From Eledone cirrhosa (Eukaryota), in NCBI GenBank assembly GCA_964016885.1, contig CAXHJY010000482.1, positions 12,307 to 76,306 on the forward strand: a DNA stretch of 64,000 nt. Direction: 5' to 3'. This document shows positions 32,873-35,800 of this stretch, in pieces. Positions within the stretch are counted from its first letter, which is position 1. Each line of letters begins with the position of its first letter. The notes beneath the pieces were generated by a model that was not told the DNA's origin, did no database searches, and worked only from the letters and a program-made list of their open reading frames with translations. The translations under genes were made by a program, and so were the position numbers.

Positions 32873-35800
32873 GGATTTCGTTTTTCGTTAACTCGTGCGC
32901 CGATTTTTCGATACTCGATCTTTCTAATATATTTAGCTCTGGACATAGCTATCCACCAGTTAATTTTATTGCTCATATTTTGTCGATTCTATTGAGTGAT
33001 GAATAGCTTTTGTTTTATTTTAACATGTCTATTGAGCACTCTAATTCGATATGTGTATTTCCACATTCACTCGAATTATTTTCGCGGATATAGGGGTCAT
33101 CTCCCTTGTCTAATGCCATGTGCGTTTTTCACCGCTAGTTGACTCCTTTGCCGCCAGGATAAAACTCGTTGACGACGTAAACTCCATTCCACTTATTCTA
33201 GTAGGCTTTTATATTTATATGTGAGCTGATAGAGTACTGTCTAAGGATTTACAGAAACCCATGAAGCTAGATTTAACACCTTTCTAGTGGGTCCGGGTAT
33301 GATTTTACATTCATTTAAATTATTGACGTATTGTTTTATTGATATTTTTTATCTGTTTGGCCCGAATCTTCCTTTATCGATTTTAAATCGTATGGTTGAT
33401 TGTAGACTTGTTCTATATGTGACGGTATTTTAACGATAGTTATAGCTCTGATTCATCTGAATTATTGAGCCCTCTGCCGCTCATATCGGATTTCGTTTTT
33501 CGTTAACTCGTGCGCCGATTTTTCGATACTCGATCTTTCTAATATATTTAGCTCTGGACATAGCTATCCACCAGTTAATTTTATTGCTCATATTTTGTCG
33601 ATTCTATTGAGTGATGAATAGCTTTTGTTTTATTTTAACATGTCTATTGAGCACTCTAATTCGATATGTGTATTTCCACATTCACTCGAATTATTTTCGC
33701 GGATATAGGGGTCATCTCCCTTGTCTAATGCCATGTGCGTTTTTCACCGCTAGTTGACTCCTTTGCCGCCAGGATAAAACTCGTTGACGACGTAAACTCC
33801 ATTCCACTTATTCTAGTAGGCTTTTATATTTATATGTGAGCTGATAGAGTACTGTCTAAGGATTTACAGAAACCCATGAAGCTAGATTTAACACCTTTCT
33901 AGTGGGTCCGGGTATGATTTTACATTCATTTAAATTATTGACGTATTGTTTTATTGATATTTTTTATCTGTTTGGCCCGAATCTTCCTTTATCGATTTTA
34001 AATCGTATGGTTGATTGTAGACTTGTTCTATATGTGACGGTATTTTAACGATAGTTATAGCTCTGATTCATCTGAATTATTGAGCCCTCTGCCGCTCATA
34101 TCGGATTTCGTTTTTCGTTAACTCGTGCGCCGATTTTTCGATACTCGATCTTTCTAATATATTTAGCTCTGGACATAGCTATCCACCAGTTAATTTTATT
34201 GCTCATATTTTGTCGATTCTATTGAGTGATGAATAGCTTTTGTTTTATTTTAACATGTCTATTGAGCACTCTAATTCGATATGTGTATTTCCACATTCAC
34301 TCGAATTATTTTCGCGGATATAGGGGTCATCTCCCTTGTCTAATGCCATGTGCGTTTTTCACCGCTAGTTGACTCCTTTGCCGCCAGGATAAAACTCGTT
34401 GACGACGTAAACTCCATTCCACTTATTCTAGTAGGCTTTTATATTTATATGTGAGCTGATAGAGTACTGTCTAAGGATTTACAGAAACCCATGAAGCTAG
34501 ATTTAACACCTTTCTAGTGGGTCCGGGTATGATTTTACATTCATTTAAATTATTGACGTATTGTTTTATTGATATTTTTTATCTGTTTGGCCCGAATCTT
34601 CCTTTATCGATTTTAAATCGTATGGTTGATTGTAGACTTGTTCTATATGTGACGGTATTTTAACGATAGTTATAGCTCTGATTCATCTGAATTATTGAGC
34701 CCTCTGCCGCTCATATCGGATTTCGTTTTTCGTTAACTCGTGCGCCGATTTTTCGATACTCGATCTTTCTAATATATTTAGCTCTGGACATAGCTATCCA
34801 CCAGTTAATTTTATTGCTCATATTTTGTCGATTCTATTGAGTGATGAATAGCTTTTGTTTTATTTTAACATGTCTATTGAGCACTCTAATTCGATATGTG
34901 TATTTCCACATTCACTCGAATTATTTTCGCGGATATAGGGGTCATCTCCCTTGTCTAATGCCATGTGCGTTTTTCACCGCTAGTTGACTCCTTTGCCGCC
35001 AGGATAAAACTCGTTGACGACGTAAACTCCATTCCACTTATTCTAGTAGGCTTTTATATTTATATGTGAGCTGATAGAGTACTGTCTAAGGATTTACAGA
35101 AACCCATGAAGCTAGATTTAACACCTTTCTAGTGGGTCCGGGTATGATTTTACATTCATTTAAATTATTGACGTATTGTTTTATTGATATTTTTTATCTG
35201 TTTGGCCCGAATCTTCCTTTATCGATTTTAAATCGTATGGTTGATTGTAGACTTGTTCTATATGTGACGGTATTTTAACGATAGTTATAGCTCTGATTCA
35301 TCTGAATTATTGAGCCCTCTGCCGCTCATATCGGATTTCGTTTTTCGTTAACTCGTGCGCCGATTTTTCGATACTCGATCTTTCTAATATATTTAGCTCT
35401 GGACATAGCTATCCACCAGTTAATTTTATTGCTCATATTTTGTCGATTCTATTGAGTGATGAATAGCTTTTGTTTTATTTTAACATGTCTATTGAGCACT
35501 CTAATTCGATATGTGTATTTCCACATTCACTCGAATTATTTTCGCGGATATAGGGGTCATCTCCCTTGTCTAATGCCATGTGCGTTTTTCACCGCTAGTT
35601 GACTCCTTTGCCGCCAGGATAAAACTCGTTGACGACGTAAACTCCATTCCACTTATTCTAGTAGGCTTTTATATTTATATGTGAGCTGATAGAGTACTGT
35701 CTAAGGATTTACAGAAACCCATGAAGCTAGATTTAACACCTTTCTAGTGGGTCCGGGTATGATTTTACATTCATTTAAATTATTGACGTATTGTTTTATT

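What the first reader, a model, noticed from the sequence alone, without database searches (positions are those of the whole stretch)
33085..33370. Compensatory base changes point to a conserved RNA structure, possibly a non-canonical ribozyme, in the 615/591-bp family
Seen: AGGGGTCA (33092-99) pairs with TGACTCCT (33140-47), while the relative has AGGGGCTG (396-403) with CAGTCCTT (441-448); flanking YCTCCCTTG and TAGT are conserved. Both keep GAAACCC...GGG-TC-CGGGT (33254-33298; 560-604), resembling hammerhead stem III plus a GUC site. CGGG pairs with a downstream CCCG (33360-64; 615-620) across loops of very different length. No CUGANGA is in canonical register (CTGATAGA at 33226 vs CGGATGG). 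G-U pairs in the outer helix favour the plus strand, though an inner helix in the relative favours minus. Inference: selected RNA fold.
Basis: partly seen in the sequence, partly recalled or inferred. Interest (0 to 1): 0.75.

Follow-up and report, generated by a model that had tools for sequence, protein, structure and literature searches.

The report
Variant hammerhead ribozyme in animal retrozyme
This repeat is a small non-coding jumping element, present thousands of times in an animal genome, whose every unit carries a hammerhead self-cutting RNA motif with an unusual but partly known core; it likely spreads as an RNA circle copied by a borrowed Penelope-type retrotransposon enzyme, and cutting itself is untested.

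Summary
Stem I is the upstream ACUCG (33164-68), not the downstream CCCG. In 24 diverged monomers U4, G5 and A6 are invariant and N7 is free. There are 4163 complete motifs genome-wide against 0 in the control. The core is U3-A8 (published), U3·G8 in this array, and C3·A8 in one subfamily. It adds an A/C after A9 (published) and an invariant A before G12 (not found in my searches), plus a 4-bp stem I-II pseudoknot with some covariation. The downstream CCCG is a conserved competitor of stem I, predicted to switch the ribozyme off in the monomer. The unit is a non-LTR retrozyme: 580-625 bp, head-to-tail, fixed 3' end in (TA)n, 5'-truncated. No RNA data; no autonomous partner proven. The scan already noted U3-A8 retrozymes elsewhere in this genome. 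New variant of a known kind.

The parts
32872..38470 (+). head-to-tail array of 9.1 identical 615-bp non-coding units, ending at the family's fixed 3' end and running into (TA)n
   Evidence: 8 cut-to-cut units, 1 distinct sequence
32828..32871 (-). inverted end of another high-copy (TA)n-inserted element, fused to the 5' end of the array
   Evidence: loose ends continue into another repeat; same end, reverse complement, in L048, L063, L082
33157..33160 (+). 5' strand of predicted pseudoknot (GGAT; GAAC or GGAC in relatives)
   Evidence: helix 1: 89.6% of cells paired, 2 of 4 pairs with double-sided change
33164..33168 (+). hammerhead stem I, 5' strand (ACTCG)
   Evidence: 4 core pairs intact in 22 of 24 monomers
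33169..33176 (+). core strand U3 U4 G5 A6 C7 G8 A9 plus extra C9a (U3-A8 in most relatives)
   Evidence: column counts
33177..33252 (+). long stem II (GTAAA 33177-81 with TTTAC 33248-52, G10.1-C11.1 closing pair); internal loop holds the pseudoknot 3' strand ATTC 33186-89
   Evidence: pair probability 0.72-0.94 in the 615 unit
33253..33257 (+). extra A11a, then G12 A13 A14 A15.1
   Evidence: A11a and GAAA in 36 of 36 rows of A3 (rows were picked on this strand)
33257..33293 (+). stem III (ACCC/GGGT with inner helix CTAG/CTAG) and C17; predicted cut 3' of C33293
33294..33298 (+). stem I, 3' strand (CGGGT); would be the 5' end of the cut monomer
33360..33364 (+). downstream GCCCG, conserved competitor for the stem I 3' strand (predicted off-switch)
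   Evidence: 4 pairs intact in 21 of 24; energies
57..810 (+). older relative, 1.3 units of about 591 bp between (TA)n tracts; hammerhead at 460-603 (core UUGAGAA 473-479, predicted cut after C598, competitor 616-620)

Best explanation
The unit is a non-coding, non-autonomous retroelement (non-LTR retrozyme) carrying one type I hammerhead motif with a variant core, which is predicted to cut the plus-strand transcript after C33293 and likely yields a monomer circle that a Penelope-like reverse transcriptase copies into (TA)n repeats. Shown by sequence: the three helices around UUGANRA+M / A+GAAA / GUC, the tandem units, the fixed 3' end about 200-255 nt downstream of the cut site, the 5' truncations and the (TA)n targets. 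Inferred: read-through transcripts fold the ribozyme during transcription, helped by a 4-bp pseudoknot between the strand 5' of stem I and the stem II internal loop. Once the downstream CCCG is made it captures the stem I 3' strand and silences the ribozyme in the monomer or circle. A host ligase would close the circle, as shown for other retrozymes (PMC7229834). A PLE endonuclease would nick (TA)n, the RT would prime at the fixed AU-rich site and go round the template one to 16 or more times, giving identical head-to-tail units. Odds by step: hammerhead fold 0.9; measurable self-cleavage of U3-A8 copies 0.7; PLE-type mobilisation 0.85; circular template 0.6; off-switch role 0.5.
For: RNAalifold found the three-way junction unaided on 24 monomers picked by a whole-unit profile. 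In those 24: U3 23, U4 24, G5 24, A6 24, N7 free (commonest base 9), R8 (A 18, G 6), A9 23, G10.1 23. Complete motif 4163 times against 0 control. Named structure on 36 rows: 88.4% of cells paired, 29 double-sided changes against 13.7±2.9 in shuffles (0 of 500), slid controls 27-52% paired. U3-A8 cores and a nucleotide after A9 are published for PLE hammerheads (PMC4209133); U3-A8 is reported active in vitro (PMC3088659). Unrelated hammerheads in this genome with a perfect CUGAUGA carry the same 9a and 11a extras. 58 of 59 3'-end rows run into AT repeats at one fixed site. Units are identical within arrays but differ between arrays. 8 private changes are shared by both repeats of one insertion against about 1.1 expected, in 33 insertions. 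8 of 30 5' junctions fall 4-19 nt 3' of the predicted cut.
Against: No cleavage assay and no RNA data. Stem I has pair probability of 0.04 or less in every fold tried, including the truncated co-transcriptional one, and the hammerhead fold is 1.1-4.7 kcal/mol above the blocked fold (pseudoknot energy not counted). Stems I and III show no double-sided change because their 3' strands are invariant; two of the five measures were not above shuffles (282 and 309 of 500); the rows are related and the structure was derived from them. RNAalifold on the shorter alignment found stems I and III but not stem II. The 3-8 pair is a U·G wobble in this array, and 57 of 58 C3 copies have a C·A mismatch yet most belong to one subfamily that spread, so full catalytic fitness is not needed for copying. 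No 5' junction sat exactly at the cut. No autonomous element sharing DNA with the unit was found.
Confidence: 0.8

Rival explanations
1. Same element and fold, but the hammerhead is slow or vestigial. The structure serves mainly as a binding or packaging signal for the PLE protein, and multimers are copied from uncut read-through transcripts of tandem source arrays, without a circle.
For: U·G and C·A at 3-8 in amplified lineages; stem I disfavoured; PLE minimal hammerheads cleave poorly (PMC4209133); 8 of 9 Xenopus retrozyme dimers did not cleave in vitro (10.64898/2026.07.22.740005). Junctions 3' of the cut site could come from RT pausing at GC-rich helices and from TA microhomology.
Against: Invariant U4, G5, A6 with free N7 across lineages 55-84% alike is the pattern of catalytic constraint; private changes shared within insertions favour a one-unit template.
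Confidence: 0.14
2. The unit is the detached terminal repeat (pLTR) of an autonomous PLE not yet found, amplified as solo and tandem copies, and not an independent retrozyme lineage.
For: Retrozymes are reported to derive from pLTRs; Penelope-type elements here carry U3-A8 minimal hammerheads (L171, L183).
Against: No fetched copy adjoins a PLE reading frame as its terminal repeat; a profile of the unit finds only separate insertions in 50 and then 70 PLE-bearing loci. At least 9 lineages keep unit length near 600 bp. The search covered few of the genome's PLE families.
Confidence: 0.04
3. A new ribozyme class or an HDV-like double pseudoknot built from the 3' half alone (GAAACCC...GGGUCCGGG...CCCGAAU).
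For: CCCGAAU resembles the HDV J4/2 strand (recalled), and GAAG/CUUC could form a P2 in the 615 unit.
Against: CCCG is followed by UUU or CUU in several subfamilies, the P1 and P2 candidates fail outside the 615 type, and the P3/L3 sizes do not fit; the hammerhead core accounts for the invariant columns.
Confidence: 0.02

Closest known systems
Metazoan non-LTR retrozymes (Cervera and de la Pena 2020, PMC7229834; Li, Clavereau and Pollet 2026, 10.64898/2026.07.22.740005)
   Same: Non-coding, low-GC tandem units with one type I hammerhead each, dispersed from partial copies to long multimers, co-occurring with PLEs; unit length lies within the 51-972 bp range of the 2026 survey.
   Different: Longer than the 170-400 nt circles studied in 2020. 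Stem II about 75 nt and stem III about 33 nt instead of short hairpins. U3-R8 core with two extra nucleotides. A conserved internal blocker, whereas most metazoan retrozyme circles are predicted to leave the ribozyme free. No cephalopod retrozyme paper turned up in searches.
PLE hammerheads, including the U3-A8 variant of Schistosoma Cercyon elements (PMC4209133)
   Same: U3-A8 covariation, extra nucleotide between A9 and G10.1, conserved G10.1-C11.1, short stem I, long stem II; PLE-like partial tandems with 5' truncation.
   Different: Full, stable stem III (would act as a monomer, no dimer needed); invariant extra A before G12; U3·G8 and C3·A8 lineages; not attached to a reading frame.
Pseudoknot-stabilised and core-variant hammerheads (Perreault et al. 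2011, PMC3088659); axolotl HHR_Amex2 with a U·U mismatch at the base of stem II (PMC7229834)
   Same: Stem I-II contact by a short pseudoknot; tolerance of a mismatch at the foot of stem II.
   Different: Here the opposed nucleotides are A·A or C·A and sit under a conserved G-C pair; the 3' pseudoknot strand is in an internal loop of a very long stem II.

Membership tests
Hammerhead ribozyme, type I | Three helices around the core, stem I open, strand order core-5', GAAA, NUH | tested here: met
Hammerhead ribozyme, type I | U4, G5, A6, A9, G12, A13, A14 conserved, N7 free, A15.1-U16.1 pair, H17 | tested here: met
   24 monomers; A-U in 35 of 36 rows; the 3' half was part of the selection pattern
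Hammerhead ribozyme, type I | Watson-Crick pair between positions 3 and 8 | tested here: inconclusive
   U-A in 28, U·G in 7, C·A in 1 of 36 rows; this array has U·G; 57 of 58 C3 copies have A8
Hammerhead ribozyme, type I | Canonical spacing A9-G10.1 and C11.1-G12 | tested here: not met
   extra A/C after A9 and extra A before G12 in 36 of 36 rows; the first is published, the second was not found in searches
Hammerhead ribozyme, type I | [quoted passage not shown] | tested here: inconclusive
   4-bp pseudoknot, 89.6% of cells paired, 2 pairs with double-sided change in related rows
Hammerhead ribozyme, type I | Match to an Rfam hammerhead model | tested here: not met
   no hit at gathering threshold or at E up to 10; long stems are a likely reason
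Hammerhead ribozyme, type I | Site-specific self-cleavage 3' of H17 | not testable with these tools
   needs an in vitro assay; 5' junction pile is only suggestive
Non-LTR retrozyme | Non-coding tandem repeat with a type I hammerhead in at least two consecutive units | tested here: met
   9 of 9 units in the window; no frame of 150 aa or more in the array; arrays of 16 units
Non-LTR retrozyme | Dispersed, mobile copies | tested here: met
   identical copies on five large contigs; 4163 motifs
Non-LTR retrozyme | Expressed as linear and circular monomer RNA | not testable with these tools
   no RNA holder listed; contigs only
PLE-mobilised non-autonomous element | Partial head-to-tail tandems, fixed 3' end, variable 5' truncation, (TA)n target | tested here: met
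PLE-mobilised non-autonomous element | Shared terminal sequence with an autonomous PLE | tested here: inconclusive
   none in the loci scanned, nor by eye in the three octopus Naiad records on supplement part 24; only a small part of the genome's PLE families was sampled
HDV-like ribozyme | 7-bp P1, 3-bp P3, 7-nt L3, conserved J4/2 C-R-A-A, P2 (features recalled) | tested here: not met
   read by eye

The most novel reading that the evidence does not exclude
An active hammerhead architecture with an expanded core: an A·A or C·A pair inserted between the A9·G12 pair and G10.1-C11.1. It is used by several unrelated (TA)n-targeted elements of this lineage, tolerates U·G and C·A at 3-8, and is paired with a built-in blocker that turns the ribozyme off in the circle, as in viroids. 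The element would tune its own cutting rate to leave longer-than-unit templates, and the two young 615-bp alleles that differ only at position 8 would be a natural experiment on that.
Probability: 0.35. Interest if true: 0.65.

Novelty: new variant of a known kind. Interest (0 to 1): 0.45.

Why it matters
Standard descriptors (CUGANGA, short stems) and Rfam miss this motif, so thousands of ribozymes in this genome, and probably in related animals, go uncounted. The family gives natural alleles for the 3-8 pair (U-A, U·G, C·A) and for an apparently undescribed insertion before G12, which can be assayed directly. Very young arrays, a fixed priming site and intact (TA)n-targeting Hydra-clade PLEs in one genome make the open question of how PLE proteins copy retrozyme circles testable.

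Tried and rejected
Rfam: only a tRNA-like hit elsewhere in the window; chance hits in the region. HDV-like, hairpin, twister, SECIS and H/ACA readings were considered by eye from recalled consensus features and dropped because they fail across subfamilies. Naiad as partner: two short patterns from the published octopus Naiad found 0 matches, which does not show absence; the supplement holds no GGGTCCGGG (line breaks and cut runs can hide a match). GIY-YIG loci gave Penelope-type elements with short hammerheads and no shared DNA. The young 832-aa Hydra-type element shares the (TA)n target but no DNA, and no clear hammerhead was found inside it; Pfam gave no family. Sequencing runs: no RNA holder listed; contigs showed no joints; one 645-nt contig (unit plus 30) fits a circle or a tandem array equally. 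One search used a mis-indexed structure string and is void; one search is the corrected count. Searches were script errors, rerun. The stem I counts are too low from a parsing slip and are replaced. The 5' junction control (34 against 14 reverse-strand loci) is confounded by AT content, distance from the 3' end and point variants in the control. A link between array length and the base at position 8 was not supported: long arrays exist with both A8 and G8.

Full report
Setting. The window lies in a 3.0-Gb animal genome rich in (TA)n. That it is octopus-like is my recollection of its SINE sequence and comes from no call. The finding sits in the first of 9.1 identical 615-bp units (32872-38470) that end in (TA)n; a 591-bp relative of 1.3 units lies at 57 to about 810 between (TA)n tracts. 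Rfam gives nothing for the region.

Family. The 341-bp finding has 1167 candidates, and the 40 scored are all 100% identical, on five large contigs. The 591 type has 3037 candidates, the 40 scored being 95-100% alike over the full unit. The 3' half of the motif occurs 5308 times against 8 for the reversed pattern. Among 39 near-full copies there are 9 clusters 55-84% alike. Of 59 distinct 3'-end rows, 58 pass into AT repeats at one homologous site (a few rows show the same insertion twice), while 5' ends vary. A fixed 3' end, 5' truncation, partial head-to-tail tandems and (TA)n targets are described for Penelope-like elements (PLEs) (PMC8557442: passages, section 11, searches in the supplement and its part 24). 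This polarity makes the plus strand the RNA (inference from target-primed reverse transcription).

The fold. RNAalifold on 24 monomers chosen by a whole-unit profile (24 of the 27 representatives) predicted a three-way junction: CCYG upstream with CGGG, GYR with YRC, and ACCC with GGGU. The linkers are UUGANRAM, AGAA and C. This is a type I hammerhead. In the window: stem I ACTCG 33164-68 with CGGGT 33294-98; core U3 U4 G5 A6 C7 G8 A9 at 33169-75; extra C 33176; stem II GTAAA 33177-81 with TTTAC 33248-52; extra A 33253; GAAA 33254-57; stem III ACCC with GGGT 33289-92; C17 at 33293. In the 24 monomers U3 is kept in 23, U4, G5 and A6 in 24, N7 is free (commonest base 9), position 8 is A in 18 and G in 6, A9 in 23 and G10.1 in 23; only 31% of all columns reach 95%. 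The complete pattern occurs 4163 times against 0.

Covariation. On 36 ribozyme regions (36 of 80 distinct, thinned by similarity and picked with a relaxed core pattern) the named structure pairs 88.4% of cells, with 29 double-sided changes against 13.7±2.9 (0 of 500 shuffles) and a covariation score of 0.233 against 0.196; slid controls pair 27-52%. The counts of pairs with change and of pair types were not above shuffles (282 and 309 of 500). The rows are related and the structure came from them, so this is support and not proof. Stem II has double-sided changes in 3 of 5 pairs; stems I and III have none because their 3' strands are invariant. A 4-bp pseudoknot joins GAAC, GGAC or GGAU 5' of stem I to GUUC, GUCC or AUUC in the stem II internal loop (89.6% paired, 2 pairs with double-sided change). 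RNAalifold on this shorter alignment recovered stems I and III but not stem II.

Core variants against the literature. U3-A8 cores, a nucleotide between A9 and G10.1 and a conserved G10.1-C11.1 are published for PLE hammerheads (PMC4209133, parts 1-2 of 4). U3-A8 is reported active in vitro, and pseudoknots and a U·U mismatch at 10.1-11.1 occur in nature (PMC3088659, passages and sections 8-9). A saltern variant is written with U3 and G8 (PMC7151607, one passage). An axolotl retrozyme has a U·U mismatch at the foot of stem II (PMC7229834, passages and section 17). I found no report of an extra A before G12 (searches, listings only) nor of a cephalopod retrozyme. Figures, preprint supplements and subscription papers were not visible, and any of them could hold either. 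Unrelated hammerheads in this genome with a perfect CUGAUGA carry the same 9a and 11a extras (window 53214, L151, L036, L100), which suggests that the expansion is tolerated. Against high activity: this array has U3·G8, otherwise identical arrays have U3-A8 and differ only there, and 57 of 58 C3 copies have a C·A mismatch, most in one subfamily that still spread.

CGGG with the downstream CCCG is intact in 21 of 24 monomers, over spacers of 13-63 nt in intact copies. It competes with stem I. The blocked fold is 1.1-4.7 kcal/mol more stable than the hammerhead in local, monomer and circular folds, and stem I has probability 0.04 or less even before CCCG is transcribed (pseudoknot not scored). 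I read it as a likely off-switch for the finished monomer. Most metazoan retrozyme circles are predicted to lack such a block, while viroids and plant retrozymes have one. The outer helix is solid in the two window types, but appears in the best fold of 13 of 23 representatives, the plus strand folds better in 14 of 23, and it is not recovered by alignment folding or by shuffle tests beyond those two. It lies outside the ribozyme.

Mode of spread. The 3' end lies about 200 nt (591 type) to 255 nt (615 type) past the cut site, and insertions run through that site, so the template was a circle or an uncut multimer. Units are identical within arrays and differ between arrays. In 33 older insertions 8 private changes are shared by both repeats against about 1.1 expected by coincidence (rare subfamilies could mimic this). 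Of 30 insertions 8 start 4-19 nt 3' of the cut, none between -18 and +3, 18 spread over -19 to -269 and 4 lie further 3'. A genome pattern gave 34 reverse-strand loci near the cut against 14 at a control site, none of the 19 listed exactly at the cut. This fits cut ends trimmed to TA microhomology, but RT pausing fits as well. Animal retrozymes are proposed to be non-autonomous PLE derivatives (10.64898/2026.07.22.740005, parts 1-3 of 5). The genome has an intact 832-aa PLE with Hydra-clade marks (RWR, DKT, CxCX5C; compare), 127 scored copies at 97-100% identity, and (TA)n ends. It shares no detectable DNA with the unit, so it is a candidate only.

Earlier notes. After I had reached this reading (note), the scan's index showed several U3-A8 retrozymes of 320-595 bp elsewhere in this genome and a separate scrambled hammerhead. 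Sequence look-ups found no look-alike of this family, so whether they are the same family is open. They are unchecked notes and are not counted as support.

Verdict. A real, selected RNA structure: a variant type I hammerhead in a non-LTR retrozyme. The kind is known. The expanded core, the mismatch lineages, the long stems with a pseudoknot and the conserved blocker make it a new variant. Cleavage, expression and the partner enzyme are untested.

Noticed in passing
window 53214-53293 (+), inverted partner about 52490-53190: Second, unrelated type I hammerhead with canonical CUGAUGA, the same extra C after A9 and A before G12, a long stem II and a GUU site, in an inverted-duplicated element that ends in (TA)n.
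   Followed up: partly
L151:21, L183:1558, L110, L179, L036, L100: Other short (TA)n-associated repeats carry compact hammerheads with both extra nucleotides; L171 and L183 (Penelope-type) and L208 carry U3-A8 cores.
   Followed up: partly
L203:2077-4572; G000, 127 scored copies: Very young, intact 832-aa Hydra-clade PLE in about 4.2-kb tandems ending in (TA)n; no canonical hammerhead found in its terminal repeat, although the clade is reported to have them.
   Followed up: partly
window 32828-32871: Inverted end of another very high-copy element fused without a TA spacer to the 5' end of the array, possibly a template switch.
   Followed up: partly
window 33174 and G000:C1:13091100-13100455: Two young 615-bp alleles differ only at hammerhead position 8 (G here, A on C1); both form long arrays.
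   Followed up: yes
window 33112-33125 and 413-426: A palindromic CAYGUG or CACRUGUG is kept in the loop of the outer hairpin in nearly all lineages; it could be a kissing-loop or protein site.
   Followed up: no
window 57455-57525 (-): tRNA-like match, 50.6 bits; gene or SINE head not examined.
   Followed up: no
window 29500-30531 (-): Broken LINE-type reverse transcriptase fragments (family judged from recalled motifs).
   Followed up: no
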